This document shows, one piece after another, positions 3,194 to 38,147 of a DNA stretch of 64,000 bases. The stretch's first letter is position 1. Every line of letters begins with the position of its first letter. The notes under the pieces are model-generated. The model saw nothing but the letters and a program-made list of their open reading frames with translations, searched no databases and was not told the DNA's origin. Made by a program: the position numbers and the translations under genes. Location: the NCBI GenBank assembly GCA_030141605.1, contig JAQGDQ010000662.1, positions 1-64,000 on the forward strand. The letters run 5' to 3'. This DNA comes from Tubiluchus corallicola. Taxonomy: Eukaryota > Animalia > Priapulida.

Positions 3194-3243
<50 letters not shown>

Positions 3244-3629
3244 GCACATATGTAGACTTGACACTTATTGTACTAGTGCGTACATTTAGTAATACAAAGA
3301 ACACCTGATTAAGAAAAAAACTACTTTCGTCTCAATTGACCGTTCACCCTTTAGTAAACTATCCTGCAATAGAATCGTGTTGACCTACTTAATAGGTAGA
3401 TGACCTACGTAATGACCTATGTAAAATTTATCACATATGTGACAAGAGAATTATTTGTACTAATAACGACAGAGTTGGCAGGAACATTTGAACATATAAA
3501 CTGACAATGATCAGGACATCTATAAATGATATTAACATGAACAAATATGTATAATATAGAAAATTATTGCCAAAAAATGGACGGAATGCAAATGAAAATC
3601 AATGCATCAGGAAACTTCAACCGTGCACG

Positions 3630-7481: not shown

Positions 7482-10400
7482 CTGAAAGAGCAGAAAAGTG
7501 TGTTAGGGGCGTCAAAGCAGCTTCCTTAACTCAGCATTGCAGCCACACAAAATTTCCTGGATAATGCATTCGAAATGTAGAATTTATGCAGTCAAAAGTA
7601 AAGACCCATAGTTACTGAAGGTCGGTAATGAAATCATTTAGTGAGAATGACCAATGGCCATCGTTACAGTCGTTATTAGTGAAGAAAGCAAAACATCTCG
7701 CCAGCTGCTTTAACACCCCTCGACGCTTGTCTGCTCCACCAGGAGGTTAAAATCAACACAAATTATCGTACAGCTACGCACAATTGAGCAAAATACAGGC
7801 AGGTGTGCGAGTTAGCACAGTAACTAATTAGTACTAACTACTAACTAACTAACTACTCAGTACTAACTAGCCACTATTTGCACCTGTTGAATGTATTCGT
7901 GCTAAGTGATTTCAGCTAAAGCTACCAAAAAATAATATTAATTTTGCATAGAGATAATATCTTAAAAAGGATCAACATATGATTTAGACGCGTATCATTG
8001 TGACTGAAATGTTAGTACGTTATGATTGACCAATGGTAAATAAATACAAATCTTCTTAGAATACATTACCCTGCTCATAGCATCTTCCAAAATGAATAAT
8101 TCTGGTACAAAAACCTATTTACAGACTGCTATGGCTAACGTTTTTTTACACAACAATGTACCTCTAACATGCACACATCTACAAATTCAAAGCGGAAAAA
8201 AGGAAATTGAACTTCATAAATCTAGTTTAACTGGATACGGTGAAGTTCAACAATTTCCTCCATAACTCGTTAGCCAGAGACAGACCGGGCCAATTTCTTT
8301 GTATCCATCAAAATTTTTAAAGTTTTTTTTTTCATGTAAACGATAATTATTACATACAATTTCTATAACTACTACAGATTTCTAAATACTGTAGTGCCCT
8401 AGAATTGAAGAAGAGCGGAGTGCTATTCGAATGCATTACCCAACTGCTGTTTACAACGATCAATGAAAAAATAATCTAAATTAGTTTCGTTTGCTACTGA
8501 TTTATTACAGATAATGGTGAGAAAAAACTAGCATAGCATCCTCAACGGATGAATTCATACTGGAAAGTAGACCTTCTCAAGAGAAAGCAATTCTTGCGAA
8601 TAAAAGAACGTGATGAGCACCATCAAAGCAAATGGGAAATGATTTTTCTAAGCGAAGAGATGCTTGTAAAATTAACAGGAAATACTTTGCCAGCCCCGAT
8701 TCTTAGAAAAGAAATAAATGTGACGATCATGCATCTCCATTTGCATTAACTATCTACAGAAAATAGTCATGGAAGATTTCTTGTAACAGTCACTAAACTT
8801 AAACAAAGTTCTCACAGAACACTTTCTGAAAAGGCCGACTTCCCATTACAAGTATCTTCTACAAGTCTGGTTTATACATCGTCTGTTTGTTTTCTTCTGC
8901 AAACACGCATGTGCAATGCACTTCAACAGTGGCAATTGTAAACTTTTCCCAGGAATCTCATCCAAGAAAAATCTGTGTTACAATGCACATCTCACTTGTG
9001 CGTCTTTCGCGTGAACGCTGGGCATGTCGGCCCGATTAAAATTCAAAACCAGACGAAGTACAAACCGGACCTGAGTGAATATCTATCCTTGGATGACCAG
9101 TTACATTCATTTTTCTATGAAATACTATGCAGATATGAATGGGTCAACTGTCACTGGGTGGTTTTCGTTCAAATACAAATATTTCAGCACCCATCACAAG
9201 AACTCTCAACCAGCATTATTAATGTAAACAGTCATTTCGAACTTTAGAATTTACATTTAAATTAGACTATTAGTGATCATCTTTTAAACTGTCAGAGTGA
9301 CCTTAAATATTCTCTAATGGTGTGTTCACACTAGCAAGTAACTTGCAAGCATGTTCAGACTAGAGAATAAAACTTGCTGCAAGTTACACTCTGCCAGCAA
9401 GAGTGAGCTGACACTCACTTCACTATTCACTGCAAGAAGTGTCAATCGTAACTTCCCTAGGCGTTCACACTAAATAATAACTTGCAGCAACTGTCGGAGA
9501 GTTTGCAATAACTTGCCGACAGTAACTCACGACAAAAACTTGCTAGTGTGAACATGCCATTAGTGCTAGCGGTGGTTCATTTAGTTTATTCCAGTTACTA
9601 CATCATAATAATTAAATGTTAATTGGGTTAAACTGAATATTTGCTAAAATTTAGTTCCATAGACCAGACTAAGCCAATTTTTATTCTCTTTGTATAGTCT
9701 ATTGCCATTGCCACTCTAAAGGTTTTAATTTTAAATTCTAAAGTTTTAAATTATAGTTTGCATTAATTACATTCATGAGGGCTCCCGTAAACAGGTGAGG
9801 AAATATTTCGTATTTGAATAAAAACTATCCGTTGACACATTCATATCTGGTTAGTACTAAGCAAAAGTTTCAAATTTATATTGCATTTCTGTTCCATTGT
9901 TCGTCATCGCCGCATTGTTTTCGGCTTTTACTTAATAGTCAGTTCTACATCATTGTTGACAGTAAGCCTTTGTTTCAAATTGCATTATTTTCTAAGACTA
10001 TCAGCATTACATTGTTCTATGTTTTCTATCATTGTTCATCATCATTACATTGTTCTGCGTCATTTACTACTGTTCATTGACAGGTATAATTATCCTCTCA
10101 TGGTCAATCATAGCTGCAAATGAAGAGACGCAAGTCGTAATCAACAGAAGTAGAATGAGCATCAACAATGATAAAGAAAATTCATCACTAAAAAATCTAA
10201 TGTTTTTTAAATTAATAATAAAAGTCGTTAGGAAATTATAGGCGAAAACAATGTATTGTTCGGGGACATGAAAATTACCACTTACTCGTCGTAACGGGGT
10301 AGCGGCTTATTGTAACCTCTTTTCCCATATAGCCAGTAGGTATTGACGATTTTACCCTGAAAAAGAAACATTACAATCTTTACAACAATACAGCTTTACA

Positions 10401-13400
10401 ATGGGTGGAGGTTTTTTGCCCGAAATAGTCTAACCGAGGTTGTGAATCAGTGTTGCTATGCTGGTTTTCGTCATTCACTGGGATGAGATAATTTAATTTT
10501 CTTTTCAAGATAGTAAAAGAACATTTCATTACACGGGAGAGACTTAGGCAACATGACCACAGTGACAAACAGATGAAAAACAAGTAAGCCTTTTCACAGT
10601 TTTGTTGTGCTCACGCGGAGTTGTTGTAGCTCAAAGGTTAAGTGTACCACAGCAACAAGTGTTAACTAACAAACCCCATGTAGCATGCGGGTAAAGCAAA
10701 GTCATCTGCCGCATCAGTTCAGTAACTTCTGTTGTTTTACGTGAGCTTTACTTAATTATGCATAAGTCTGCGCGTACAGTGATCTACTAGCAGGATCTTG
10801 CTTGGGAACAGCTGTTAAAATTGTTACTATTACAATAGCTCGGGCTGCGAGGCGCTGTCAAGTGTACACAAATATGTTGTCTGGTACACCTAACCTTTGA
10901 CCTTTTCACCAACACCGTCAATCGCTCGAACTGTGAAAAGGCTTACTAACAAGGTAGGTTCATTTTGAGATGATATTACGGCAATAGAATATATGTTTCA
11001 GGAGATATAGCACTTATTCCTGTGAAACATACCCGAAGCTTATCAACATTAACACAGTAGGCGCCGCTTTATAAACTCACTTTGGTGCCGCCGTGTTTTG
11101 ACCCTATTAACCAACTGAACCTATTAACCAATGGGTGTAGTACTACTGGCACAGAAGTATAAGTCACCAGTTTACTATGCACTGCAAAGGTGTTTAATCA
11201 ATTTTAGAAACGAACTAATGCCTAAGTTCCTTTGTGCAGTTAAAAATTAGAAAAAATATTTTAAAATATTAATTTATGTAAGTGAATTAGCAATAAGTTA
11301 AAAAGTATACTTTTCTAAATCACAGATTTTTCTAAGTCTGAAATTACAAAAATTACAAAAATTCCTACAAGGTCGGCTGCTTTATTTTCTCACAAAGAAA
11401 TTGGCCCACAAAGTTCTCGTAATTATAAAAATGTTGAAAATCTGTTGTTGTGCATGACAAAAACAGTTCTGAATCGTCTGCTCACTTACTCTGCTCTTAT
11501 TTGATGTTTACTCTTGTAAGTCACAAGGAATACCGGCTGATTACTGTACCTGCATCTTTGACTGTTAACTCATTAAGCCTGAAAGCGTGATTTGCAACGA
11601 GAGCATCAAAAGGAAACCGCTAGGGAAGTGATTAAATGTTTAGCTTCCAGAAATTCTTTGGGTAACAGTGGGCAACAGATTCAAAGCAAAACCGCTACCC
11701 TAGCGTATTAGTGCATGATAAACGTACCTGTTTATAAACAAAATGGTACTTAACATAATTGTTTCTACATATATAATGCACAAAAGGGAAGTAAAGATGA
11801 CATAAAAGTAGGAAAGGCTCTTTGGTGACATACAAATATCTTATTTTAAGTAGGTGAATGAAAAATATTGAGTCAATTAAGCTGAATTATTTAAGTCAAT
11901 TACCGATAGTTTTTATGTATATTTGAATAGAAGCGTTTTTGAGTCAATAAAGCAATTGAGCCTATTAACCTAAAGTCCATTAAGCAGCGCCTACTGTAGT
12001 AAAAAAGTATTAATTTTCCCATACCTTCGTCATGTCACCATTCTCAGTACTCTTTAGCGGACGCTAAAGAGAAAGAAATATTTTCAAAAATATTATATCA
12101 ATCAAAATTTAAAATTTTGACCAAATTTGGATCTACCATCATTTTAAGATCGGTCGGGTCTTAGTGACTTTTTTCGGTTCTGGAACTAAATTGAATCAAA
12201 ATAAACTCAAGCCGATGTTGATAAGCTGGAGCCAAAGTGGACTCGTCTGGAATGCCAGACAGCTTGATCAAAATGCTTAAATTACAAAAAAGATCACCTA
12301 TCCAGCTACCCATTAAAATCAGTGCTGTTTCAATTTCAGAATGATGTAATGTAAAGATATGTCAAGAAAACATAAATAAAAATGTAAAAACTGCTGTCGT
12401 CATCATCATTATCATCATCACCACCGCCGCCGCCACCACCACCACCACCAGCACCACCCCCACCGCCACCTCGATCATCGACCGCTGTCATGATGGATCA
12501 CCATCACCACCACCATCATCGACCGCTGTCATGATGGCCACAGCCAATGTCAATAGCATCATCACTGTCATTGTCGTCATTATCAGTGCTAACAACTCCA
12601 GCATTTTCGTCGTCGTCGTCATTGCCAGCAATGCCACCATCAACACCAACAACATCATTATCGCTGCCGTCATCACCAACATCATCACCATAAACACCGT
12701 ACCTTGATACTCATCTCCCCACGCTTGTTCATTTCGTAACCTTCATTTGAGCATCTTAAACCTTTGAAGAAATGTTCGCTGATCTGAATGCGATTTGCTG
12801 CAAAAACAAAAAAAACAACTTCATCAGAAGTCCACGTTAAAAACAGCCTTACACCTATATTTAAAAAAATATAACAACAAAGCTATTACAATGGGTTGAC
12901 TCTTGCAGGACCGTATAAGCAATTGCTGCATTTTGCATGGGTTCATGAAAAACTGCTCCCACTAAGCAGCGATTACATTATACTTGACAATTTCTCTAGG
13001 TTTCTACTCCTCACACAATGGATTTTCTTGCAAAATTATATATGAAATGCATTTGCTTACATTAGACAAATTAAAAATCGTTTTTAACTGAAAAATTGAA
13101 AAAAGGCTTTCAGTAACTACGCTATTTGCACTGCAACAAAGTACAGTATCACTTGTGTGCAATCGGCTAATGCAGAAAATTTCAACTATCACGCAAGTGT
13201 ACGCCAGACCAAGTTACTTGATAAGCAAAGCTGGAGTGCCTGAAAAGGGCGTGCTTTTCTTAATTTTGTACTATTAGTTTGCCTTTCCAGAAACTTTCAA
13301 ATGGACTATAATTTATACACAAACGATTATCTAGCAGTACGGAATAAGAAATTTCACATTCTTGGGACTGACATGCCTAAATGAAAAAAATAGAACTTAG

Positions 13401-16400
13401 TTAACAGTGTACGCTCACGGCTGATCAAGCATTTTCCGGGTAAACATCCAAGAAATACCTAATGGTAAAAATTGGATCAACCGTGAATCGAACACATCCT
13501 ACAGACCGATTCCCATATTGCATAATACGAATGGCTTCTATACTCCTGTTAGCTACAATGTCAACGCTTAGAGGTCATAGTAACAGAAATGCCGACAAAA
13601 CATTGATAAAACTTTGTGTTACTACAGCGGAAGAGAGTTACTAGTACATACGTCTACTTGTAGCCTCCATTTTGCCTGCGAAGCTAATGGAGTCACCAAA
13701 CAGACAATAACGTGGCATCGTCAACCCGACTACGCCAGCCACGCACGAGCCCGTATGAAGACCTAAAGTGTAAAATATAAAACATTTATTTGTTTATCTG
13801 TCTAATTAGATGTTTGTTTCTTTCTTTCTCTTTCTTTCTTTTTTCTTTGACAATTTCATTATTTGTTTGTATATAATAAAATGTTTATTTACTTGCTTGT
13901 CTAATTAGCTGTTTGTTTATTTGTTTGTTTATTTATTTCATTCTTTCTTTCTTTTGCTTTGCTTTCTTTTTTCTTCTTTTTCTCTTTCACAATTTCATTA
14001 TTTGTTTCTATATAATTAAAATGTTTATTTATTTGCTTGTATAATTAGCTGTTTGTTTATTGCTTGTTAGTTCATTTGCTTGTTTGTTTGTTTCCTTCTT
14101 TCTCTCTTTTGTTTTCATTTCTTTTTTTTCTTTTTTTATCTTTGATTATTTTATAATTTATTCATTCACTCACTCATTCATTCATTCTCCTACATATCCA
14201 ATGATTGATTGATTTATTCTGTCATTCATTCAAGCACTCACTCTTTCGTCCGTGTTTTCAAAGCACAGAGATTTTTAAGTTGACTGTAACTGCCACCAGG
14301 GACAAATCATCCACTTGCAAATCCTGAAAAAGATTTCTGATTTTCTGCTTATAACCAACAACAATCCTACAAGCAATTCTTCAAAAGCTTCAAGTAAAAG
14401 TTATGAACTGTTTTCTCAAACAATACAGCCGTCATGATGAAACTGATACTTCTACACGGCGAAATAACACAGTTGCTAAAATCAGTTCAGAAATATCGCA
14501 GCTGCAAAAGAGGACTCACATTACCTATGTGCAACTGAAGTCTTTTTCCTGCTTTGTGTCGAATTTTGAAGTCCACAGTGGCACTTAACAAGTCGAGCGC
14601 ACAGTTTGCTATCTCACACAAATGCCTATTACCATTCCTGACTGGCAAACCGCTAACGACCATGTATGCATCACCTATCGTCTCTATCTGTAATTTTAAA
14701 AAATGCAATTGCAAAGAGATTATATAGGCACAACTTTAGAGATGCTCCCTCCCCATTTACAGCGTGTTTTATTTTAAAAAGATCAGAACTGCACCTATTA
14801 TTTTTGTAGCCATCCTTCTTTCACATACAGGGTATTTCTTAGTTCCCATACAGGGCCTTCGTTAGTTACCATAAGGGCCCATAAGGACCTTTCTTAGTTC
14901 CAACGCAGGGCATTTCCTAGTTACCATACAGAGCCTTTCTTAGTTCCCATACAGAGCCTTTCTTAGTTCCCATACAGGGCTTTTCTTAGTTCCCACAGAG
15001 GGCCTTTCTTAGTTCTCATACAAGCCTTTCTTAGTTCCCATACAAGCCTTTCTTAGTTCCCATACAAGCCTTTCTTAGTTCCCATACCGGCCTTTCTTAG
15101 TTGCCATACAAGCCTTTCTTAGTTGCCATACAAGCCTTTCATAGTTGCCATACAAGCCTTTCATAGTTGCCATACAAGCCTTTCTTAGTTGCCATTCTTG
15201 GCCTTTCTTTGTTCCCATTCAGGGCATTTCCTAAGTTGCCTTTTTTAAATCGGTAAGCCACCATTAACAGCACTTCAATCTGGACGCAAAGTGAACATAA
15301 ATCCGCATTATTATAGTATGCGGAGGTCAAAATACAGCAAGTCCTCGCTTAACGACGCCCCACTTAAAGACGTTTCATTTTAGCGAAGCTATTCTTTTGA
15401 CACCTCTTTTCATTAAATGCGCATTTTTCGTTTGGCGACATTCCGTCTGACGATGGATTTTGTTGGGAACACATTAGCAACGTTAAGCGAAGACTTACTT
15501 ACAATGTTTCACTACATGCAACTAACAACCAATATGTGTAGCAAATATAATAATAAAATGACAGGTGAAATCTATGTCCAGATACATCACACAAAGTTTT
15601 GATTGCTAGCAAGGCAAAGTTACTGGTAGAAAATTCTCACTTTACCTTATACACATCGTGCACTTCAACGATTTCATCGAAAACCCCGTACACGTCGTTT
15701 AAGAAATCGACAATCTGCAAGAAAAATCGGAAAGAGCGTTAAACACAGCGTGCTTTAACTCCATCAGGACTGTAAGCGATTGCTGCATTTTGCATGGGTT
15801 CATGAAAAACTCCTCTCACTAAGCAGTGACTACGTTATATTTGACAATTTTTCTAGGATTCTACTCCTCACACAATGAATTTTCATGCAAAATTATATAT
15901 GAAATGCATTTGCTTACCTTAGACAAATTAAAACTCGATTTTTGACATATAAATTGAAAAAAGCTTTCAGTAACTGCAGTGTTCGCACTGTAACAATGTA
16001 CATTATCGCTTGTGTGCAATCGGCTAATGCAGAAAATTTCAACTATCCAGACACAACAGCATGATACACTTTGGCCAGAAACTTATTGTATTTTTAAAGA
16101 GAAATTCTTGTTAAAAGATGAAACGACCTTAATTTCTCATTGCTGATCGGTTGGCTTTTCCTGGAATAACATAACCGCATAACGCTGGACAGTTTGGACT
16201 GTAGCAAGCAGGCAATCAATAAAATAGTGTGTATGATCACACAAGTATACACCACACTAAGCTACACAGGCTAAATTGGAGTGCCTGAAAAGGGCATGTT
16301 TTTCTTAATTTTATCCAATTAAATCACTGATAAATGTTTCAACAATTAACATGATTGAATAGCCGCAATTCTCCTCAATCGAACAGTGCCTAATTAGTAA

Positions 16401-19400
16401 TCATTTAGTTAAGTCTGTGTTTATACAGTAACAGAAAACTCACAAGTCATATAAGACCCATTTTGAATGGTGCAGTCCTGAAAGAGTTAATTAAAACAAG
16501 CATTGTACAAGACGCATGCAGCATTACTACCATGTTATACTGCATACGGGATTGCTTCCGACAACGAAGCCAGAGTTGAGACACTAGCTGCATTTTCATG
16601 ATCGATTAAACCATCCGATAATCGTTTATAATCGATGAATGCAGACAAAAACCACGTGTTTGCGCTTATGAGAAACCGCCACATCTAAGTGGCAATATCA
16701 GCATGCCAAGTTTCTGCACAAATGCAAAGCCACATTGCTTGACTTTACTGCAGTGATGGCTGAAAGTATCGTGCAATTTTTGTGAACTTTTATGAAATTG
16801 ACACTAGAAGGCAGTAAATTTGCATCGGCAACTGAAAAATATCGGAAATAAAAACTATTCGGTCCCGCATTTAAGTAAGCGAAAAAACGTTGTGTTTACT
16901 CAAAACTGAGGCACATAACCAAAATATATGGCTGCTACAGAACCACATACCATAAGCATGTATAACTGTGCTAGTGAGAGAGACATTAAAAAAAATGTCG
17001 CTAGAATTTTTTTGAAAAATTATGGTAACCAACAGGGTCAACTTTAATCACTTGTATCATCGCAATGTCACAGCCCGTATCAGAAAATACCTTATCATTA
17101 TCCAAATTTACCCCACTTATGAATCAACAAGGTTTTTCAAAAGCCGCGCTTTCACAGGCTTCTCGACTTCACCAACTATCTGAAAATTTTTAAGTCCAAC
17201 AATTGCCAAACATGTGCCAAAAGTTTGCCAAACAGTGTTCACCATTGTTGCTAAAGTGTCGTTAGAAAAAATTTTAAGATGAATAAAACGCCAAACTTGC
17301 TACCGCGCTAAACTGTCATAAAGTTGTCGTAACATGCGATAAAACGTTCGCAACAATTTCAGAACTCACGAGATTTTGTCGAACATTTTGCGACGCTTTT
17401 GAGAAGGTTGAGACGACTTTTGTGATTATTTTTCCACATTTTTGCAAACCTCAGTTGTCCCTCACTTCTTTCTGTGAAACTGTCAAGAAATGATCGCGAA
17501 GTACTAACACGAGTGTCATGTAACATTTGTTTTGCAGCATAAATATCGATGAAATTGCAACGTCGTGCGAATTTCGTGCTTTATTCTTCCGATTTTCGCC
17601 TCAGAAAAAAGCCCAGAATTTGCAAAACTGCGGCAAAAGTCACACGAAAGACAAAACACAGTTGCTGGAAAAATTTGGCCACTGTTGGAAAACTTTTGAC
17701 TGTCACAAAAATGGCAAGTCCACGAGCAATCCTGACTTAAAACATCTAACATTGTCACACGCAAGAAAACTCAAACAGAATTAGGAATAAAACAGTTGAA
17801 TTTACACTTTACATCTCGGTAAAAATGCTAACCTGCATCGGGCTGCTATCAGAAGAGAGTTCTGAGAAGCCAACAATGTCAGAAAAGTAGATAGACACGG
17901 CTTCGTAATGTTCCGGCGGAACGGGCTTTCCCAGCTTCAGTGATTCGGCCACGGAGCTGTAAAAAACGTACGCGTTAATTCATTAAGAATCGGTACTTGA
18001 AAAACAGGTCGCTACGTCCATGAACAAAAGCATTGAGACACGAAAGAGCCATCCTCCAGGAATCATTATTATTATTAATCTACTGACTATTCAAATTTAG
18101 ATAAAATATACAACGGTTTATATGCTGTTTATTGAGTGCAGACGATCGGTTCGACAAGAAATATTATTATCAATGCTCGAAATTAAGCCAAAAGAAATAA
18201 TAAGTACATTTATAACAGTGCAATTAGTAATCCACATTTTATACTCTTCTGAGTTTATGATTTTTCGTTCCTCGGTAATAAGCCTTTTTCACAGTTCCAC
18301 GGAGCAATGATGATGATCGTGAAAAGGTCAAAGGTCAAGTGAAAGTGAACCTAATAATGTTATCTGAACCAAACAACGCATTTGTTTACACTTTACAACG
18401 CCCCACAGTCCACGCTGTTGTCATAGTAACAGTTTTTGGCATTAATTTTTGCTTCATTTATTCCATTTTACATGGATTGCTGTTGCTATTTTGCTAGCTG
18501 TTTTCGGATAAGAATAACATGTTAGTTTAAAACTATATACGTGTAATATATACTAAAAATAACCACGTTCTTCACCCATTTCACCTACATGTAGTTATGT
18601 GCATAAGATCATGCGACTATTATAATTAAAGGACAAGAAAAAGGGCAACTGAAGTAGGTTTCAGAAAGATCGCCTTAAAAAATTGACACCACTAAAACAC
18701 GTAAATCAGGGGAAGAAAAGGCAATGTTAAATTAAACCCAAAAAACTTTCCGTGCAAATCTATATTACTTAGCATTTCACTTACCCGCTGAAAAGACTTA
18801 CATAACTAGACTAATAATTTCAAATGTTTGTGCCAGTTGGTAAAATGTCACTGACTCACCCTCCAAGGTGCGCCACTCACTAGCCAAAAACGTATTGACA
18901 AGATACAGTAATTTAAAATTTTACTTAGTTAGTGACTTGTGCGCTACGAATGCTCTGATTATTTTTTCAAATTTTACTCAATGTTATCAGAACTTGTTTC
19001 AAACGACCTACCATTAAAATGGCTGTGCCTAACAGTCATTGCGGGAGTTTAAATTTACATGCTTTATACAGCCGATGCAAACCATGCATACGAAAAGGTA
19101 GTAGGTAAGTGGTATAAAACTTCGAGACGAATTTTTTAAGCTTTATGTAAGTGGAGGGTTTACTTGTGCTTTAAGTAAGACGTGCTGGGTTCACTTAACC
19201 TCTGACCTACAACAACTGTGCATGTGCATAGCGAAAATGTGAAAAGGCTTATTATTTTTTTATGCAGTGTTAGAAACATACTGATTATTTCTTTTGGCTT
19301 AATTTCTAGCAAAAATAAGGACATTTGTGTCGAAACAATCGTCTGCACTCAACACACAGCATGTTGAAAAGCATTAAGAATGAATGAAAAGCGTTAAGAA

Positions 19401-22400
19401 TGCATGAAAGTGTTAAGAATGCGTGAAAACATTAAGAATGCGTGAAAAGTTACAATATGGCAGATACAACATAAGAAAGTAAACTGCTTACAGGCACCAA
19501 AAGAATACAAATAATGCACAAAAGGCCAGTTGTATAACTTCCCTTACAAGTGATAATTTCAAACACGGGAAGTTTTCAGCAACCAAACTTCCACTCAAAG
19601 TCCCGAAGGTCATCATATGTCAAGAAAGAAAAGAACCGTAATCTGCACTAATATGCAACTACTTGAACTAGAAACCTACACTGGTAACAGTCGGTAAAGC
19701 AAGCGGTCAGTCTTCTGTTTTTCTTCAACGATCTGATTGGTGCGTTCCTCGACGACTTGCTCCAACTTCTTGTTAAAGTTTTCCATTGTCTCCATAATTG
19801 TGCCCATTAAATCAATCCTAAATGAGAACAATGCGGGTCATTTTTATTATTACTTTTATTACTTTCTGTTACTGCACAGATTCGTTGTTAATTACAATAA
19901 TTACTTATGATTTTGTGTCATACTAATTAGCATGTGCAATGACATACACAGCGAATGCATGACACGTTTTCATCCTTGACAACATTTAAAAACTGTGCTT
20001 AACGCAAAACCGGACCCAATCTTAAACTGCACGTCAAAACAATCTACTCTTTAAAATATAAAACACTATTTTTTAAAGAACGACTTATGTGAAAGAATTA
20101 TTACCACACAAACACAATTTTGCATTCGCGACACTAGTTCTTCGCTGTTATGTGCACTTTGCCATTCGCTAGTTAGATGAGCACTAGCGCCTACATTTGG
20201 TAAATGCATTGCACAAAAAACAGGTGCTGTACCACTCGGTTCAGACGTGTTAGTTTGTGACAAACTGCACACGTTCGACAGCTCATGCATGAGCACAGAG
20301 ATAAATTTGAAATTTGAATTTTTATCTGAAAACTTGCCTAGTTTTAGTATACCACACTGAATTCCTTACAGTAGCACTGTTCTTTAATTTTCACTTTCGC
20401 AAACAGGTGCAACACACTCGTGGAACATTTTTGCTGTTGAAAATGATGTTAGTTGGGCTCATTAATAAAGATTTCAATCTATTGCTTAACTATCAGAAAC
20501 GCTTCTGCAGTATTAATTGTGTTAAAATGTATACTTTTTATCGGACTTGAAAATGGGATAGTGTATGAAAAATCATTAAGTCTCTTGATATTTGAACCCC
20601 ATTTTTCACACTAGTTTCATTACTTGGGGCTACTTATCACCATTAACCATCTTCCTTGACATTCTCTGATGCTCCTTGACACTTTTTGATGCTCCTCGAT
20701 ACTCACTGATGATCCTTGATACTTTTTAACACTCTCTTACAGCTCTTGATACTAATTAGCATAAGCTACAACAATAAGTATGTGAGTAAAATTTTGTTAA
20801 ATTCTACACACAAGGATCATCATTGGACAGTGACCACTTACTGCCGCATTATTGAAGACACGGACAGAATTCATACTACCACAGTACTTTAATCACCATC
20901 CATTCATGTAGCAAAATATTTAAAGAAATTTGTAAACTACTTAACATGTTGGTTTTTTTTCTATGCTTAAAAACTAAACCTAGAAAAATATAACAAAGAA
21001 ACTTGCAAAAAACTGTCTATAAAGCATAAATTTAATTTATACTACCGCTGTATTGAAATTTTCAGGCACGGTGGCAAATGCCTTTCACTTGAAAATTATG
21101 ACGTAAAAGATGGATTTCGTGGCTTTTCGTAAGTGCGTCGTGGCTTTCCGTAAGCGCGCGCTGCTTAAACTAATTTAAACTTCTGTTGCTTACCTATTGT
21201 TCCTGCAAAAATAGAACAAAATCTGCTGTTTAATTTTTTTGTAAAACTTATTATACTTTGAAAAAAATTAACGTTGTTTTTCTTCAGTCGATGAACGATG
21301 TCACTGGTGGAAGAATGGGCGTTCAAAATGGAAGCACCCAAGCGTGAAATGATCGCTACTTTAAAGTCCTTTTACTAATTACAAGAGGCACTTATCACGC
21401 CTTTATTACTAAATCCTTATAACATTTTTGCGAACATTAAAATAAGCATAACCTATTTTAAAAAGGACATAACTTTCCCTTAAAGTACAAGAAAATGGCC
21501 AACCAAAGTAAGCCTCAGAAAATTCACAATGAAAAATTATTTCACCTAAGTATAATCTTAAGCAAATAAAATACTCACATTTTCGCATTTACTCCAATTT
21601 TTGTAAAATATTTCTACCGCTGCAGTAAACGTTGGCACAGACATGTTTCATTTAGCCCGCCAATTGAAAAGCCAGCATGTGACTGATCACGTGGCATGAC
21701 ATCACTCGAACACAGTCGCAGTGAGTTCTGAGCACGTGTCCTATAGAGATTTGCGTTGTGGTTCTGTGGCGCCATCTAACATGGCGCCGCTGTGACAGTC
21801 TCGCGGGAGTATTTAAAATGAAAACAAACAGGAAATTCTTTAACGTGAGTAGGATAAATGCTTAAGATTGCCTCTAATTCTTTAGCGAAAATTTTCTGAT
21901 ACTTGCTTTAACTAGACCTTTTCTTGTCCTTTAAAAAGGACATGCATTAGAAAGCATATAAAAAGATTCAATGAAAAAACAAAAGAAAAATTCATGGTGT
22001 AAATAACAATTCTTGACTTGAATAATACACGAATTCAAATTAATCTGTATGGTTTGGAAGTGCAGTATTAAATACGTCACTTTCTGAAAAGATCGCAAAG
22101 CTATCATTGTGAAGGATTTTACGTTATTTTATTACCTCAGTGTTCTCTCATTCTGTAAACCCCCTATACTGTCCTCTTTAACTGCATTCGTATGTATGTC
22201 TTGACTTGGCTTCTTTCTGTCGTGCTCTACCGACAGAGCTAGTTTATCTGGCTAGTTGGCAGTCTGTTCTTGGCTAAGAGAGTTGTTGTTGTTGTTGTTT
22301 GTCTCAGTTAAACCATTTATTTGTCAAGAGTAGTAAAGCCATGATGTAAGTTTATTTTGATTATTCAGTCTCACTTTATTATTAACTTCTTTGTTTCTTT

Positions 22401-25400
22401 TTTGGCTCAAATTAGTTTGTTATATTTTGTTATAATTTTTCTTACAGATATAAGCTTCAACAGTCCTGGAGTAACGCCCTTGAAATTGAATAATTACCAA
22501 AAGTAAAATATACTGGAATATCTGTGATTGTTTCTGTGTTTGTTTACAATACGACGGCAATACGATATGTTTAACTAACTGTCAATTTCCCCAAGAAATG
22601 AAAATGAGAGTGTTTGCAATGTGATTGCTAGGATAAGTTTTGTTCACTACACATTATGCTGATCATTTGTAGTAATCAACTCTATGCATATTGGTATCCA
22701 ATTCACATGCACCTAAGCTGAATAGAATGGAATGGCTCTCCTTGAATCTTTAAAATTTTAGTCTGTATAATTAATTTCGGAGGTTTCTGGATATATATAT
22801 ATATATATATATAAAATTCGAGGCAACAGCTACCAGGACGGCACCATTTTCTGCGATCTATATATCAAACAAAAAGTCTCGATCTAGTGTCGCCTCATTA
22901 AGGGTTTATTTTTTTAATCAGGCCCACCGGGCGAAATCCTCCAAAAATGGCCATTTTTCCGCTGTTTTTTGCAAAAATTTAACCTGTTATTCTGGAGAAC
23001 GGGAATGGACCGGAGGTGGTGCCGGTAATAGTTATTTAGCCCGTTTAACGGCTGGTGTAGTAGGCATATTTAGTGTTCATAGGAGGGCCACGGTATCCTG
23101 TAACGGACGTTTTCCCGGTCCCAATTCCCGATTTTTCCGAAATTTTGGCCTAACAGCCTGCAGAAAAACATTCTAACGATGGTTTGGAAGATTCTCGAAA
23201 GGAGATACATAGCTCTTTAGAAAGAGAAGGAACAGGGCTACACAATGATGTGGGTTACATTTTGGGATTCGCCCACCAAAAGGAGCTGCGACGAGTTGAT
23301 TGGAGGTTCCATTTTCGGCAATTCTTGTTTGGAAAACTGCTGACGTGTTGCATTGTTCTGACGTCATTCCATTATACTCTGCCTGTAATTTTGCTTCAGT
23401 AAAAGTTGCTGCTGACTTTGTGTTATAAATAAGGACTAGGTAGATGTTTGCATATTATTGATTATAAATGTATTTATATGCAAAATTTTTTGCGGGGCAT
23501 TAGCTAGTCTAACATTATTTTTTGTGCAATGTACAGCTGATGCCATAGCCTTTACTGCAAATAAATCTTACTACAAGTTTTCTTTCATTTCAAAAGTTGA
23601 CATTTCATTTTGCAGTTCAGTATTGTTTTAATTCTGAATTAGACAAAAAACCATTTTTTTAATGTTTAGGGCTCTTGAGGTGTTAAAGTGGCCCTGAGCT
23701 TCTATTCTGAAGCTTCTTCTATGTGTTCTTTTACAGCTGTAGTGAGTCATTAGCAGTGAAAGAAAACAGGAAGACACACTTTACTAGATAATAAAAGAGG
23801 AAGAATATTACTCACTTTCCGCCAGACATGTGTCGCAGTTCTTTCCGGATGTTGGCGAACGTCGGCCGCACATCCGGTTTTTCGTCCCAGCATAACTTGA
23901 TCAGTGAGATGATTCGAGGGCCCATGTCGGTGGAGTCGCTCAGCGTCGGCCGGAAGGGATTGGCCTCCCCATTCCGGACTCGATTGATGGCGTCTAAAAT
24001 GCACGAAAAAAGATGATGCTTCTTATTGTGTAATGCATTTTCTATACACGTTATGGCAACCATGACAGTAAATTATTTGTAATATATCCTATCAAAAAGT
24101 TGAAAAAATAAACACACAAAGAGAGAAATACAGTCTACGCGTTAGACTGACACGTTTTCCTCTGAGCAAAACAGAGATCTCAACTGACTGTTTTAAAATA
24201 TGCTAAAAATAAAAACATTATGCTATTACAAAAAATCAAACTATGTCAGGTAGAGTGTGATGCAAATGACAGTATGTGCTAGCCTTAATCTGTGTTGGTT
24301 TCTGTTACAATATTTTGATCTGTTATATTTTTGACATTGTGTGATGGTGTAATGTTTTTAATTGTATTATATTTTGAAACAGCCAGTCAAGTCACTGTTT
24401 TGATGTGTGTGAAAATTTGGCCATAAACCATCTACAAGTTTTGAATCTTTGTTGTGTGTTTTTACTTTTTAAATATATAGTGAAGTACTACAGATCAGCA
24501 CTTGAAGGCGTTATATCTCAAAAATTATGAAGTATAATTTGTGTGCTTGCGAAGCAAAAACATCCGCAAATCGACAATTAAGCTTTTTATCTGCATATCC
24601 TGAATCTCTATTTCATGAGGATCATTTTGATACCAAGTTTATCGCTCCATGTTATTTGTAAGCTGAGATAATCCATGTTGAAATTGAAGTGCAGGCTACG
24701 CACTGAAAAACGTATTCTTGAGAAAATTGCTGTTAAAGTCAGCCATTGTTTTTTGTCGTAACAAAACATAGCAACCGTATGAAAGTGTGGCTGCTCTGGA
24801 GTTTGCAAGAAAACATTGAAGTTACGTTTAAATCCTGTACCACATGAAGTTCTGGGTATGGCAATGGAAAAACCGCAAACAAAATTATTCCTTCCGTGAG
24901 CTGCCATCGGAGTTTGAAAATACAATTTCTGACAAGAACTCAATACTAGCTTTTAGGCAGAGAATTGGGTAAGGAGTCATAAAATCAAATTTTCAGTATT
25001 TTCTGAAGTATTTAGATTTAGTAGTATTTACAATCAACGTTGGTTTTTGCAAAAAAAAAATTGATACTTGACCAAATTTTCGATGCATTTTACTTTGAAG
25101 CAGCATAACGTAGTTTTAACTATGTCGACTTTTGGACGGTTTTGGTTTGCAAGCATGCAACTATCTTACACTACAAAAAAATCGCTTGACATTTTCCTAA
25201 TGCCTAGATGATAGCATTCTTCTCTTTTGATATCGTGTTTTTAAAATGTCTTCTTGTTAGTTAAGCAGCAACATTGGTTAAATTAGAAAAGAAACCTTAT
25301 ATGTAATTTACTTCAGAAAGAGAAAAGAACTCCAGTGACCTCCGGCTAAAACTATCAAGAACTAGTCTCGTAGAACTTGATAGTTCTAAATACCTCTAGA

Positions 25401-28400
25401 ACCATCTAGAACTATCAAGAACTATCAAGAACTAAAGTCTCACATCTGCTAGTTTCTTTAGGTTCAGAACCCTTACTCAATTTCCTTTGAGAACACTAAG
25501 TGCTGATAAAGTGTTAATTGCGTTGCTTTTTTCCAAGATTTGTGAAATGTAAATAACTCCAAAGCTTTTTGTACTAAAACTATTTGAAAATCTACTTTGG
25601 TGTCAGCACGTTCTTAAAATTATCATTTTAACCAGGAATCTTCAAAAATGGGTCACCATATTAGCACACGGCTTAAGACGAGACCCTCTTAAATCACTAA
25701 AACAGCAAAAATGGCAATCTTTTACCTCTAGGTGTAACACTGTCAAAGTTATACGGGGGACACCGATAGACCAGCTCATAAGCAACGACGGCAAAACTGA
25801 AGACGTCTCCTTTCTGGGTGCCTTTCGGGGGTGGAAAGTTCTCTCGGAGAATCTCCGGCGCGGTCCATTGCTTGTATGTGAAGATCCGGTTAGTCAAGTA
25901 TTCATTGATGTTGTCCGCCTTGCGGTGATACTTCCCTGTCTTCTGTTGACTTACTATTAAAAATAATATAATATTCATGCCTTCATAATGAAGTTTCAGA
26001 ACTAAATAATTAAACTGCTTCATCGTTTTGCTTTAGCCACTTTTTACAGCGTCTCGTCTTTTTAGAATACGCCACAATATTGTGTTCTAAATTTTTTGAC
26101 AAAATAGATTCTACAGCCACTTGTGGTTTACCAGGCCGTCACGACTATCCAAAATCTTCAAACTATAAAAAATGGCGAATCACAAGAGTTGAAAAATTCA
26201 TGGCCATTGTTCTGGAACACAACCTGCTATGACCTTAGTCTGGCGCAGCAAAACATATCGTGTACATCTGAGATGAGGCGGTTTAGACTGCTGTTATACA
26301 GCCTAGTTTTCACGAGGGTTTCACACCTTCAAACAGCCGTGCTTTCACAATCCAGTACAAATCTTTCAAAGTTCTTAAACCTTAGTGTTATTAAACTTTA
26401 AGCTACAATGTTATTTTATCGTGAACTTGTTTTTATCAACTGTGGGCACCTCATTTCATAAGAGCTATTTGGTTTCTCCTCTTTAAGCGACAGAGATGAC
26501 ATCTTGTTCACTACGCATGAATTCGTTATGTGAATTTACGAAAGCAAGGTTGCCCAACACATTATCCCTTTCTTACTTGTTAATGTTCTCTTTATTATTT
26601 CTCTTTTGAATAAACAAATTTATAACATGAAGCAATTAGTGAAAACATTTGTGTCCACAACAAATACAATAGTACCGAATTTATGTAATTCTAATGAGAC
26701 GAATTTAGTGGAAAATTTATAAAATCGTAGTCAAAACTTCATTAAATCTCTTTTGGTCGGTGGTCTGGTATTTTTGCTCTGCAAAAATTGTCGCTAAAGT
26801 TATTACTTTGAACAACTAACAAGTTATACTGTGTGTGTAAATTTTAATAAACCACGACTTTTTGGCTGAAAGAAAAAAGAGCAAAACAAGCTTCCCCCTT
26901 GATCTGCAGACCTGTGATCTCCCATGTTATTAAGCTACGATTGTATTTCTTATTTTAGCAACTACAAAAATCATGGGCTCAAGGGAAATCACCTGTTGCC
27001 CACAGTTCAAAAGGGAGACTTGCACTTGTGAAAAAAGTATCTCAGTACTTTGAAATTCTTCATTCTCTTGAGCGCCCTCTTTCCTGTTTTGTCCAGACAG
27101 CACGCTCGGCAGGCCGTAATCCGTTACTTTAAGTACCCATCGATGATCGATCAAACAGTTTGTTGACTGGAAGAAAAATCAATTTCTTTGCAATGACTCT
27201 AACAATAATAACTGCATTATAAGGAGGAGAAGTTAGAGAGTGGTCGTGAAGTGCACGCTTAGTGACCACAGTTAAAGAACACCTAGCCTATACAGTAAAT
27301 GGATGGGTGACCTCCTAGAAAACTACTTCTACATGATTTCTCCTGTCAGGTTAACAAGTTTTCTAGCGATGACTATATCGCTTTTGTCCGTTTCCATCTT
27401 AGGCTTAGTCGACTACCCCTGATAATGGGCAAACTTTTGGCCCAAACACAATTGATTTACGCACTGTGTTGAGTGCCGGACCGAGCGCTGAACTTTATAA
27501 AAAAAACATTATAGCCAAAATTGTACAACTATTGCTCACACATTGTCGGCTTTTAGATAAAGGTATAGCTATTTAAATTTAAATGAGAAAAGACAATTTT
27601 TAAGTGTCTCAAAAAACTTTCCATACAAAGCTATGTTACTTTTGCATTTAGCTTACCTGCTTGAAAGACTTGTGCTAGAAGAGAATTAAGAATTCAAAAT
27701 TTTCGCATCAGCTGGTAACATGTGACCGTTGCACTATCTCAGTGCGCATCAAAAAGCGTCATTGGTTCATAGAAAAACATACAGTACTTTGTCTGTAGTT
27801 TTGCCTAAGCTCCCGCTTGCTATTGTGACGTGCTTACTGTACACTACCTGCATCCTTGGCATAACAGCAACATCTAACTGATTAAACTTACTGGCAAAGA
27901 CAGCCAGAGCTTCAAAAGCAATGGCTAAGCAAGTGATTAAATGTTTAACTTCCAGGAATTCTTGGGTAAGGAGGTTAATTGCAGTAGACGGGCAGGTCGA
28001 AGCAAACCGTTAGGCTAGCATATTAGCACGTGATAAATGTTCCTGCTTACAAACAAAATGGTACTTAACATGATTGTTTCTATGTATGTTATAGGAAAAA
28101 AACAAACTAAAATGATATAAAAGTCATAAAACCTTATTAGTCACAGGAAAGTGTCTTACTGAAACATGTCAGGCAAAAACATTGAGTCAATTATGCAGAG
28201 TTATTTGAGTCTATTACCATTACATTTGAATAGAAGCGGCCCGTTCCAGGCGTTTTTTAGTCAATTAAGCGATTGAGTCTATTAACCGTGAGTCTATTAA
28301 GCGGCGCCTACTGTATTATTAATCTTACCGACAAGAAAAAGTAATTAAAGCTTTTGCATGGTCTCATTATATTTCAAACTTTTCGTAACATTACCTAATC

Positions 28401-31400
28401 TTGTTTCAAATGACTTACCATTAATATGGCTGCACCTAACGGTCATCGCAGGAGTTTAAATTTACAAGTTTTATATACCATTACTACTAGCCCAAGGCCT
28501 GTATGCAATAAGACAGCACATCAGTGATATAAAATTCCAAGACAAATTTTTAAACTTTCATTCATGAAGACTGTCTTCCTGTGGTCAGTGGTCAGTAGCA
28601 ACAGTAAGCATCAATGTAATAAAAACATACTGATTCCTACCTTAAGGTTGCCATGGGAACCAATTCCATGGATTTTTGTAATGGCCTCCATACCGCACGC
28701 CAGATCCATGAGCAGGCTATACTTGAACACCGGAGTTAACGTTATACCTTCATTCTCAATCACATCCTTCAAGTCACAAAGTTTAACGGCATTAATTTTA
28801 CTAAAACAGACTCAAGTTTCAGACCATAACTCAAACTGATCTACAACCTAAAATATTGAAAACACAATGCTAAGAATAACTTACATTAAAGAATTACTAC
28901 TTTGCATGTTTAACTTTGCTAGTTTTCCACCGTTGCACAGTCTTAGCCACACATGCTTAGATGGGCAACTATGCCTACATTTCAAATACAAAAAATATGC
29001 AACATACGGGGGTTGACATCAGTAAAAAATGACTAACTACACAATCCCAGTCATTCCATCATCATAGCCTCGTCAAATCACAAGCTAGCTTAGTAAAAAA
29101 TTTAAATATGAAATTCTGAGCTTGAATTTTTTTCCACTTTGTCTGTATCACTGTCAGTATCATTCATCAACACTGTATTCCAGTCTTTGTTTTGCTTCCA
29201 AAGATTTCTGCCATTTCTAATTTTTATCTGCAGTGACATTATGACCATTTCATCAATGGAATTTAATATTCACAGTCAGACCTTCATAGTTTAACACTAG
29301 CATCACTCACTTACCACAAGACTGCCCTTCTTACAATATTCCCAAACGAGACAGATGTTTGGAGGGTCGATGACGGCTCCGATGAACACATTAAGATTTT
29401 CGTGCATCACCTCTTTCACCTAAACAATAGAACAGCCATGTGTTTAGTTTGTTGGATTTACTATATCTGTTCACTATATTTTGTTAACTATTTACTTGTT
29501 TACTATAATCCAAATTTACTTTGCTGGATTTCGTTTTCTATAGAGGCTAGTGGGGTGTTACAGAAGCACACAATCCAAATTTACTTTGTACAAAAAATCA
29601 CAAAAAAAATTTTTTTATTTTAGCACATTAGGAAAATTGGATTTTTGGTCTTATTTTATGATATCCATAATCTTATGCAGCCTGGTCATAAGCAACGAAT
29701 CAGTATAACAGAATGAACTGATGAATTGTAATTTAGAAAACAGCTGAAATCCAGTAGATGGCTCTTGCAAAGGACGAGCTGGGCTTGAAAATAGAAAAAA
29801 CGGCAAAAATGATTGCTTCCCAGAACAACTAATTGAGTTTGAAAATACAAGATTTTCACGATAACTGCAAGACCAGTTTTTAGGCAGGGTAGCATGTAAC
29901 TAGTTTAACATTAAATTTTCACTATTTTTTGAACATTTTAAAGACGACTTGATGGTAGAATATAAAAGTGTAATATATTTAGTGTTTGTTTTTATAAAAA
30001 ACAAATAATAGATATTTGAGAGAATTTTTGATGCATTTTACTTTGAAGTATCACAACGTAGTCTTAACTATGCTGAATTATGAATGATTTTATATACATA
30101 AACTTTATACATAAATTTTATATACATAACTTTATATATACATATAAATATAACTCTGTATATAAATATATGTATGTATATTTAAATCTTATTTTGTATG
30201 CCTCGCTCAAGGTAAAGCCCTCGTATTTTCCTCATTTGTCTTGTGGGCGTAACTACACTTCTGAGACCCTGCAACTTGTGGGGGGGGGGGCAAGATTGCG
30301 TAATTACCAAAGATCTTACCGAAACTGAAATTTAAGAAACACGGGAAACCGATATCGAAACAAAAGCGAACCGAAATTATTTTTGCAAAACCGACTACTA
30401 TCACAACTTAAAAAAATTCTGATATAAATAAAACACTTCGTTTTTGCTTGTTTGCTTATATTTGCTCTGATGCAAGTTTATAGAAGTAGTTAGGCAAAAA
30501 ACTTAATCAAAAAAGTAAAACAATGTTTACGGTTAAAGAACATGGAGTTTAAAAAAAACTGACAAATTTCATTTTCTAAATATTTTGTTGTCTATATTTC
30601 ATAAACTATAAAATTAAATTTGGTTTTATTCAAATTAGGTTTTGATATTTCGATTGATTGAGTCTGGAGACTTTAAAGCTTTACAGTCATCAGCACTGAA
30701 GATATACCGCATTGCAGTAAAATGCATGCTACAAATGGTACAAAAACTACGAAACTTAATTTTCGATAAAAACAAAACTCACCGGAAAGTATGAAATTTT
30801 CATTTCAGTAACATCCCTGGAAGCTATGCCACTGGACAGACACAATAAACAACTTTTTCTCTAGTGATCAAAGGCAAACAAACATCAAAAAATTATAAAA
30901 AATAAATACCGTATTGAATTCCGTCAGCACGTTCTTCGTCAAAGTTATGTGCTGTTTATTCACATATTTTATCGCCACCATCTTTTCGTTAAAGTAACCG
31001 ACGTTTGTAAAAATCTGTTGTCCTCGAAGGTCGCCCAAGCCGCTCTTTCCGCCCGTGTAGCTTGAGTAACCACTAGAGGACGCTTTGCCAATTGACGGCT
31101 CTGACACAGCGCCTTCTTTTAAAGATCGGGAACCAGTAGAAATACTACCCTGTCAAATCACAACAGGAGATGTTGAAAGTGGCACGTGGTGAAATAAAAG
31201 TTAATGCTTGTAAGCGTTAAAGTCCAAAAACGTGAGATAAAAACTATATCCAAAAATTAATTTTTAATTTATTCATCAAAATTAATAGACTTGTTTACTA
31301 CATACAATTACAGTACAATAAAAGAGCAAGTATCAGTTAAGTCAGTTTTTTTACATTAACCACATATCAACAGTGGTAACTAGCGGAGTAAACTATAGTC

Positions 31401-37400: not shown

Positions 37401-38063
37401 CAGAAGAGTAATTGAGAACTAAGTGTGATTAAGCGACATCATACAACAATGTTTTGGGACATTAATGCACTTAGGAGCGTCAAAATTCTGGCACAACTAG
37501 CCAAAATAAGAAAGAGTTAACACCTCGTTTGAAAAACAGAATGAAGAAAACAATGTCTTTTACACGTTGCTTTGTACTTGCCTTAATGCTTAAAACAAAG
37601 CCACATCATTTCAAAACAAAAACCAATAAAAAATTGATATCGAGCACCTACCCGTGTTCCATCCTCCAAATTTACCACCTCCGCAAACTTCTGAAAGACT
37701 CCATCCTGATCCATGTCAGTGATCCAATAATCGGGTTCTCGATCACCCGCCTGATCCATTAGAAGATTTCCGCTCATTCCTAATTAAAGGAGCAACGAGA
37801 AACACGTCTTAACATGATGCACATCATCAATAAGTTCAATTTCTCGCCTAAATAAACGCGCAGCGGTAAAAAACTAAAAGAAAAATCAATAAGGGTAAAT
37901 GACAATGTTTATTCAACAATGCTTTGCGTATCTATCACCTTCCTAGTAAAACAATGTGATCGCATCTTAATGGATGTTCAAATTGTGTGCTTCTGTTTAA
38001 ATGTTTCTACGCACCCCACATACATGTTAAACATCCAACTTTGTAATTTAATGTTTCTATTCA

Positions 38064-38147
<84 letters not shown>

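What the first reader, a model, noticed from the sequence alone, without database searches (positions are those of the whole stretch)
13652..14531. Membrane guanylyl cyclase with a degenerate active site: possible obligate heterodimer or pseudo-cyclase
Seen: exon 22 reads [20 protein letters not shown] where active receptor GCs have [18 protein letters not shown]. The Asn is Ser (13683-13685) and the Arg is Lys (13671-13673). The RIG arginine is His (LQLHIG, 14529-14531) and KGKG is KGKI. Both metal-binding Asp (SDIVGF, IGDAYM) and the guanine-specifying Glu and Cys are retained, and the frame is intact. Knowledge: in class III cyclases this Asn/Arg pair supports catalysis; soluble GC alpha subunits lack it (GNNVTLANKFES) and work only as heterodimers, whereas receptor GCs are normally homodimers with all residues on each chain. 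Inference: this receptor is weak or inactive alone and may act as an alpha-like partner, modulator or decoy for another rGC. Together with the three-way ectodomain cassette this suggests a combinatorial receptor system in which a variable-ectodomain subunit pairs with a catalytic subunit.
Basis: partly seen in the sequence, partly recalled or inferred. Interest (0 to 1): 0.8.

Follow-up and report, generated by a model that had tools for sequence, protein, structure and literature searches.

The report
Receptor cyclase with worn-down catalytic half
This invertebrate hormone-receptor-type gene has an unbroken reading frame but has replaced both catalytic arginines of its cGMP-making enzyme, and a second copy of the same locus in another sequencing run still has the asparagine that is missing here, so it likely makes little cGMP alone and likely works as a partner or tuner of an intact sister receptor, an arrangement already known from nematodes and fungi.

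Summary
The residues are as reported. A 24-exon, 1,138-codon NPR-like receptor guanylyl cyclase has Ser1072 (for Asn), Lys1076 (for Arg) and His1044 (for the RIG Arg). Both Asp, the Glu, the Cys and Lys1114 are kept.

One correction: Asn-to-Ser is not fixed. A contig of the same locus in run X1 has Asn but keeps Lys.

The protein belongs to a hemichordate/annelid subfamily (100/100). Six of its 13 rows lack the transition-state Arg, while all 12 relatives keep the Asp/Asp/Arg side. His1044 is unique (Arg in 195 of 195 fetched). The ectodomain is conserved and the cyclase domain evolves faster.

No Asp-less complementary partner was found, so a reciprocal obligate heterodimer is not supported. 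Best reading (0.4): a weak, Asp-donating subunit that pairs with an intact paralogue. Rivals are a low-activity homodimer (0.3), a non-catalytic decoy (0.2) and decay (0.1). No activity or expression data exist here.

The principle is known (ODR-1/DAF-11, NeoR), and this scan noted a similar case in octopus. New variant of a known kind.

The parts
10282..49672 (-). Receptor guanylyl cyclase gene model, 24 coding exons, 1,138 aa: signal peptide, ANF_receptor ectodomain, one TM helix, kinase-homology domain, coiled coil, cyclase domain
   Evidence: open frame, 23 of 23 introns GT-AG; Pfam on single exons; tblastn of relatives. Splicing is predicted, not shown by RNA
35491..49672 (-). Exons 1-9, ectodomain; conserved (38-52% identity to 12 subfamily relatives) and not accelerated
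42417..42978 (-). Three 136-nt copies of exon 7 (42978-42843, 42767-42632, 42552-42417), introns of 75 and 79 nt; only single inclusion keeps the frame
   Evidence: use in mRNA not shown
33622..33703 (-). Exon 10, transmembrane helix
   Evidence: sequence
23816..31149 (-). Exons 12-17, Ser/Thr-rich juxtamembrane stretch and kinase-homology domain with its usual motifs
19680..19817 (-). Exon 18, coiled coil/dimerisation helix; 49-60% identity to relatives, faster than most of them
17833..17956 (-). Exon 19, first metal-binding Asp953 (17880-17878), alpha side, kept
15646..15714 (-). Exon 20, cyclase domain
14525..14687 (-). Exon 21: Glu993 (beta side, kept), Asp997 (alpha side, kept), His1044 at 14531-14529 in place of the triphosphate-positioning Arg (alpha side)
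   Evidence: Arg in 195 of 195 fetched GC-type proteins; His also in run X1
13652..13762 (-). Exon 22: Cys1065 kept; Ser1072 (13685-13683) for Asn, Phe1073 for Thr, Gly1075, Lys1076 (13673-13671) for the transition-state Arg. Run X1 carries Asn1072 and Ala1075 with Lys1076
12703..12797 (-). Exon 23: Gln1087 for a near-invariant His; catalytic Lys1114 (12705-12703) kept
10282..10356 (-). Exon 24: one-residue deletion in the loop after Lys1114, C-terminus and stop

Best explanation
This is an intact receptor guanylyl cyclase gene whose enzyme has lost both catalytic arginines, so it is likely weak or silent as a homodimer and likely works as the ligand-binding, aspartate-donating partner of an intact sister receptor. 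Shown: the residues, the open frame, the conserved ectodomain, the faster cyclase domain, and the repeated Arg loss in relatives. From published work: each class III site takes Asp, Asp, Arg from one chain and Glu, Cys, Asn, Arg, Lys from the other (PMC3591389 section 13; PMC2576301 passages). Inferred: both sites of a homodimer would lack the two Arg. A dimer with an intact paralogue would have one near-complete site (this chain's Asp953/Asp997 and His1044, the partner's Glu/Cys/Asn/Arg/Lys) and one degenerate site that could still bind GTP through the kept Glu993/Cys1065, as in fungal NeoR/RGC1. The partner would be an ordinary complete receptor, so the dependence would be one-sided, not reciprocal. 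The Asn/Ser difference between copies of the locus is read as relaxed constraint on the unused half-site.
For: In the subfamily (100/100 on a tree built without the cyclase columns), losses in the relatives fall only on the beta side. Position 7 is Thr, Thr, Lys, Lys in 4 of 5 annelid rows and Ile in 1 of 7 hemichordate rows. Position 6 is Thr in 2 of these 5, and position 8 is changed in 2. Asp/Asp/Arg are kept in 12 of 12. Degenerate and intact members occur in one species: Paralvinella KAK2140351 and KAK2151074, and Saccoglossus, where P0133 and P0280 share a longest-contig length of 276,142, which suggests neighbours. Position 6 also switches between Ser (5) and Asn (2) beside Lys in 7 metagenome loci of one gene type, 6 distinct cores. 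The window's ectodomain is not accelerated (fewer private changes in 9 of 12 triplets), while the cyclase domain has more in 12 of 12, p<0.05 in 4 (triplets not independent, no correction). Run X1 holds an exon of another cyclase with Asn and Arg intact (table 7, read by eye). Precedents read: complementation of half-dead RetGC1 subunits (PMC7939455, passages), NeoR/RGC1 (PMC12264004, sections 11-12), ODR-1/DAF-11 (PMC5225109 and PMC8045692, passages).
Against: His1044 replaces an alpha-side residue that all 195 fetched GC-type proteins keep, so even the donated half is imperfect. The X1 copy has the Asn. Asn plus Lys is invariant in 30 of 30 loci (21 distinct cores) of another family and occurs in three tapeworm proteins, so Lys may be functional. 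Thr at position 6 with Arg occurs in 34 of 121 motifs, mostly named teleost retinal cyclases. Capitella's two fetched members and Dimorphilus's one are all degenerate, with no intact subfamily member fetched for these species. The accelerated coiled coil (9 of 12 triplets) fits decay of signalling as well as specialisation.
Confidence: 0.4

Rival explanations
1. A low-gain but self-sufficient homodimer. Lys stands in for the transition-state Arg and His for the triphosphate Arg. The Asn copy is the working form, and the Ser copy is a weaker allele or an assembly peculiarity.
For: The X1 copy has Asn. Six of eight canonical positions are then intact, and both changes are to basic or ionisable residues. 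Asn plus Lys is invariant in 30 of 30 loci of one family and is seen in Dimorphilus and in tapeworms. The intact Paralvinella member lies inside the Arg-less clade, and the tree's minimum of 3 changes cannot separate repeated loss from one loss and a Lys-to-Arg return.
Against: Relatives carry Thr or Ile at position 7, which cannot mimic Arg. The window departs at 14 of 78 near-invariant columns, 13 with the X1 Asn, and the changes cluster on the catalytic helix. Recalled, not found in the library: Asn/Arg mutants of adenylyl cyclase lose most activity, and RIG-Arg mutants of NPR2 and RetGC1 cause loss-of-function disease.
Confidence: 0.3
2. A non-catalytic pseudo-cyclase. It binds ligand through a conserved ectodomain and acts as a decoy, clearance receptor or dominant-negative dampener of other receptor cyclases, and the cyclase fold is kept for structure only.
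For: Both half-sites are damaged in this lineage: alpha-side Arg, beta-side Arg and Asn, a nearby His, and a loop deletion. The ectodomain is conserved and carries three alternative exons, while the coiled coil and cyclase domain run faster.
Against: Both metal-binding Asp, the Glu, the Cys and Lys1114 are all kept, and the cyclase domain is still the most conserved domain (58-64% identity to relatives). Relatives keep the alpha side fully.
Confidence: 0.2
3. A redundant paralogue in early decay, or partly an assembly artefact, with no special role.
For: Two of the three X1-versus-window differences listed in exon 22 change residues, and all three lie within 10 bases. The Ser version was seen in no run. 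No RNA evidence of expression was obtained.
Against: 1,138 codons without a stop and 23 canonical introns. Coding GC is 46% against 35% in introns. The ectodomain is as conserved as in relatives. Lys1076 and His1044 are matched by X1 contigs. Arg loss is shared with distant relatives.
Confidence: 0.1

Closest known systems
C. elegans ODR-1/DAF-11 heterodimeric receptor guanylyl cyclase (PMC5225109 and PMC8045692, passages read)
   Same: Single-pass receptor cyclases that lack catalytic residues and are thought to form one active site as a mixed pair
   Different: That pair is reciprocal. Here no Asp-less partner was found, losses touch both sides of one chain, the ectodomain is conserved, and the Asn differs between copies of the locus
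Soluble guanylyl cyclase alpha subunit (PDB 4ni2_A, 3uvj_A; PMC3591389 section 13 read)
   Same: Keeps both Asp and the Cys, has a small hydroxyl residue for Asn, a bulky residue next to it and Lys for Arg
   Different: sGC alpha supplies its Arg574, whereas this chain has His. The architecture is receptor-type, not H-NOX, so the likeness is likely convergent
Chytrid NeoR in NeoR/RGC1 and NeoR/RGC2 (PMC12264004, sections 11-12 and passages read)
   Same: A subunit that keeps Asp pair, Glu and Cys, donates its Asp to the single active site and leaves a second non-catalytic site; its partner RGC1 catalytic domain is also active alone
   Different: Rhodopsin sensor, fungal, shown by assay. Which residues make NeoR's site inactive was not stated in the sections read
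Natriuretic peptide receptor NPR1/GC-A (PDB 9bcv, 9bcl)
   Same: Domain order and fold family; best PDB match of exon 21 (E 1.7e-15)
   Different: NPR1 keeps all catalytic positions. The window protein falls in a separate hemichordate/annelid subfamily
Database proteins of the same subfamily, no functional study found: Capitella ELT88558 and ELU17880, Paralvinella KAK2140351 and KAK2151074, Dimorphilus CAD5126154, Saccoglossus XP_077863909
   Same: 45-53% identity; 5 of these 6 lack the transition-state Arg
   Different: All keep the RIG Arg; only the window has His

Membership tests
Receptor (membrane) guanylyl cyclases | Ectodomain, one TM helix, kinase-homology domain, coiled coil and class III cyclase domain in one chain | tested here: met
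   gene model; Pfam PF01094, PF07714, PF00211 on single exons; full-length alignment
Receptor (membrane) guanylyl cyclases | Guanine-specifying Glu and Cys | tested here: met
   Glu993, Cys1065
Canonical homodimeric receptor guanylyl cyclases | All eight catalytic positions on one chain | tested here: not met
   5 of 8 in the window, 6 of 8 in the X1 copy
Canonical homodimeric receptor guanylyl cyclases | cGMP production as a homodimer | not testable with these tools
   needs an enzyme assay
Alpha-like (C1-type) cyclase subunit | Both metal-binding Asp kept | tested here: met
   Asp953, Asp997
Alpha-like (C1-type) cyclase subunit | Alpha-side triphosphate Arg kept | tested here: not met
   His1044; matched by an X1 contig; scheme
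Alpha-like (C1-type) cyclase subunit | Beta-side Asn and Arg lost | tested here: inconclusive
   Arg is Lys in both copies; Asn is Ser in the window but Asn in X1
Reciprocal obligate heterodimer (ODR-1/DAF-11 type) | A paralogue with the complementary pattern (Asn/Arg kept, Asp lost) in the same genome | tested here: inconclusive
   genome not held. Among 195 fetched GC-type proteins Asp is present in 184 of 184 and 193 of 193 covered positions. X1 shows only exon-22-like pieces of two other cyclases
Reciprocal obligate heterodimer (ODR-1/DAF-11 type) | Co-expression, physical pairing and functional complementation | not testable with these tools
   no RNA holder listed; needs experiments
Pseudogene | Stops, frameshifts or broken splice sites | tested here: not met
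   none in 24 exons

The most novel reading that the evidence does not exclude
An old bilaterian receptor-cyclase subfamily has repeatedly turned duplicates into catalytically half-dead co-receptors that pair with intact sisters (annelids, an acorn worm, this animal). In this lineage the co-receptor has three swappable ectodomain exons, a unique His in the phosphate pocket, and segregating Asn and Ser alleles, so cGMP gain would be set by which partner, splice form and allele meet in a cell.
Probability: 0.25. Interest if true: 0.65.

Novelty: new variant of a known kind. Interest (0 to 1): 0.4.

Why it matters
Receptor guanylyl cyclases are taught as homodimers, with C. elegans ODR-1/DAF-11 as the exception. 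If this subfamily works as one-sided partners, heteromeric receptor cyclases are older and wider than nematodes, and database entries named 'ANP receptor 1-like' hide co-receptors. Natural degenerate/intact pairs in Paralvinella and Saccoglossus, and the Asn/Ser copies here, make it directly testable how far Lys, His and Ser can replace the catalytic Arg, Arg and Asn. If the homodimer is active instead, the textbook residue rule needs loosening.

Tried and rejected
Whole-genome paralogue search: no genome is held. Expression: no RNA holder listed, which is no evidence either way; X2 is RNA only by guess. Alternative canonical exons 19-24 in the window: none by pattern, tblastn or blastn. First homologue search with exon 22 alone returned mostly fish retinal and other canonical cyclases, no orthologue. 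ESM Atlas with the Capitella cyclase domain gave generic guanylate cyclase clusters only. Structure prediction: one attempt on a relative's alignment failed on length and was not repeated, because the window's spliced domain cannot be submitted and a fold would not decide activity. Complex prediction was not run, since class III domains would pass by likeness to solved dimers. The first IQ-TREE run timed out; FastTree and a 22-row IQ-TREE LG+G4 run without cyclase columns were used. One search warned of one long-branch join outside the subfamily, and the outgroup was not monophyletic. Placing the seven Ser/Asn metagenome loci in the window's subfamily is unresolved: best hits are mixed, and a one-residue insertion in exon 23 is not diagnostic. 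Literature on Arg-to-Lys, RIG-Arg and NPR2/RetGC1 mutants: searches gave no usable passage (PMC10702138 and PMC2447327 were searched for terms without relevant hits; one search lists R989L once in PMC12186393, not read). PMC8370914 and PMC1435932 passages said nothing on catalytic residues of receptor cyclases. Considered and rejected as unsupported: that the X1 contig is a canonical distant paralogue, because it aligns through both flanking introns at about 97%. A very recent duplicate is not excluded.

Full report
Observation. The window is intron-rich animal DNA of 35% GC; no whole genome is held. I built a minus-strand model of 24 coding exons from ATG 49672 to TAA 10282. It gives 1,138 residues with no internal stop and 23 of 23 GT-AG introns. 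Single exons match PF01094, PF07714 and PF00211. Exons 21 and 22 align without gaps to NPR1, GC-C and sGC chains in the PDB. In the eight-position scheme of PMC3591389 (section 13 read; roles also in PMC2576301 passages), the alpha side supplies Asp, Asp, Arg and the beta side Glu, Cys, Asn, Arg, Lys. The window has Asp953, Asp997, His1044 and Glu993, Cys1065, Ser1072, Lys1076, Lys1114. 'KGKI' is a one-residue deletion behind a kept Lys. Only exon 7 is duplicated; there is no alternative catalytic exon.

The Asn is not fixed. Run X1 holds a third of the sampled words and has unique contigs with 0-5 differences over 330-520 bases, so it is very likely the same species. It may be the window's own source. 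One X1 contig spans 13567-13802, through both introns around exon 22, with 7 other letters and 2 gaps. Its three listed exon differences turn Ser1072 into Asn and Gly1075 into Ala, and one is silent. Lys1076 and Phe1073 show no difference, and His1044 lies in a contig with none. The divergence is like that of other X1 pieces (a two-haplotype bubble at 14245-14385; 17 differences in 324 bases at 28591-28914), so an allele is the simplest reading. The features seen in both copies are Arg-to-Lys, Arg-to-His and Thr-to-Phe.

Relatives. An ectodomain exon searched against the representative library found a Saccoglossus protein, 48% identical over the full length. Two further searches filled out the group. 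On a 22-row IQ-TREE tree built without the cyclase columns, the window is sister to five annelid proteins (96/94), and these six are sister to seven hemichordate proteins (subfamily 100/100) (FastTree on 46 rows agrees). I left out P0133 and P0280 as near-duplicates of P0271 and P0279, and thinned the outgroups from 35 rows to 22. The organism was not identified; an unchecked note on this genome suggests a priapulid.

Position 7 is Thr in two Capitella proteins, Lys in Dimorphilus and in one Paralvinella protein, Ile in one Saccoglossus protein, and Arg in the other seven relatives. Position 6 is Thr in two of the five Arg-less relatives. All 12 keep Asp, Asp and the RIG Arg. The tree needs at least 3 changes and cannot tell repeated loss from one loss and a return. 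Among 195 fetched GC-type proteins (a biased set, rich in fish retinal cyclases, with duplicates), the RIG Arg is 195 of 195, the Asp are 184 of 184 and 193 of 193 where covered, and position 7 is non-Arg in 10 of 194.

Constraint. The window departs at 14 of 78 columns near-invariant in 19 canonical cyclases, against 1-10 in the 12 relatives. The changes cluster at 1070-1081. In relative-rate triplets the window has more private changes than an annelid in the cyclase domain in 12 of 12 (p<0.05 in 4) and in the coiled coil in 9 of 12 (3), but fewer in the ectodomain in 9 of 12 (not independent, uncorrected). So the outside of the receptor is maintained and the enzyme is relaxed or reshaped.

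A pattern scan of metagenome contigs for Lys at position 7 gave 37 intron-containing loci of two gene types. One keeps Asn in 30 of 30 (21 distinct cores). The other has Ser in 5 and Asn in 2 (6 distinct cores), and the one locus that shows the upstream exon keeps the RIG Arg. The first type argues that Asn plus Lys can be under selection. The second repeats the window's Ser/Asn switch beside Lys. Whether it belongs to the same subfamily is unresolved. Thr at position 6 with Arg is also common in teleost retinal-type cyclases (34 of 121 motifs); their activity was not checked.

Partners. Loose ends in X1, read by eye, show an exon of another cyclase with Asn and Arg intact, and one with Met for Asn and Arg kept (table 7). 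Unchecked notes report at least two other receptor cyclase loci in this genome. No Asp-less partner was seen anywhere, so if there is a partner it is probably a complete receptor.

Mechanism. Most likely (0.4) the protein is a weak, ligand-binding subunit that lends its two Asp to an intact paralogue and leaves a second, non-catalytic site. This is inferred. Half-dead RetGC1 subunits complement each other (PMC7939455, passages). NeoR keeps Asp, Glu and Cys and behaves this way (PMC12264004, sections 11-12). ODR-1/DAF-11 need each other (PMC5225109, PMC8045692, passages; the latter says that formal proof in native cells is pending). The His on the donated side and the Asn copy count against a clean alpha-subunit reading, and keep a low-activity homodimer (0.3) and a non-catalytic decoy (0.2) open. 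Decay is least likely (0.1). The three cassette exons are 72-74% identical, and frame allows only one at a time, but nothing ties them to partner choice.

Novelty. Degenerate receptor cyclases are known in C. elegans, and this scan noted one in octopus (unchecked). Paper searches found no description of this annelid/hemichordate subfamily or of a His at the RIG position. The library is limited to open papers, and Morton 2004 and Ortiz 2006 were not read. No supplements were consulted. Mutational effects of the Asn, Arg and RIG-Arg positions are recalled, not found. Verdict: new variant of a known kind, interest 0.4.

Noticed in passing
window 42417-42978 (-): Three intact 136-nt copies of ectodomain exon 7, 32-34 of 45 residues identical, separated by 75 and 79 nt introns; all keep an N-x-T sequon and differ most in one short stretch.
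   Followed up: partly
window 25726-25953 (-): Exon 16 in the model carries about 26 extra residues in the kinase-homology domain, absent from the relatives aligned.
   Followed up: partly
run X1, loose ends at window 13696 and 13745: A further cyclase exon with the same intron position as exon 22, with Ser for the Asp after FG, Met for the catalytic Asn and the Arg kept: a second degenerate cyclase in this run (depth 5.8).
   Followed up: no
proteins P0009, P0034, P0060 and others: 34 of 121 motifs, mostly from named teleost retinal-type guanylyl cyclases, have Thr in place of the catalytic Asn with Arg kept.
   Followed up: partly
L002-L004, L006-L010, L012-L022 and others (30 of loci L001-L037): An animal receptor cyclase family with an invariant Asn plus Lys motif across 21 distinct coding cores; where three exons are seen the best non-repeat matches include amphioxus P0200 and retinal-type cyclases.
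   Followed up: partly
P0408 (Oculina patagonica): A coral receptor cyclase with His for Asn, Lys for Arg and His for the Asp after the YG: another degenerate beta side.
   Followed up: no
window 63535-63831 (+): Exon with an FCH/F-BAR match (PF00611, E 3e-12), start of a neighbouring gene on the opposite strand.
   Followed up: no
window 57619-59004 (+) and onward to about 60100; 52391-52996 (+): ORF with PHD-like and endonuclease (PF03372) matches, likely a decayed non-LTR retrotransposon; a second retroelement-like ORF without Pfam match.
   Followed up: no
window 1120-1845, 2902-3290, 3640-4530, 14850-15220: Tandem minisatellite arrays that give long open frames by repetition.
   Followed up: no
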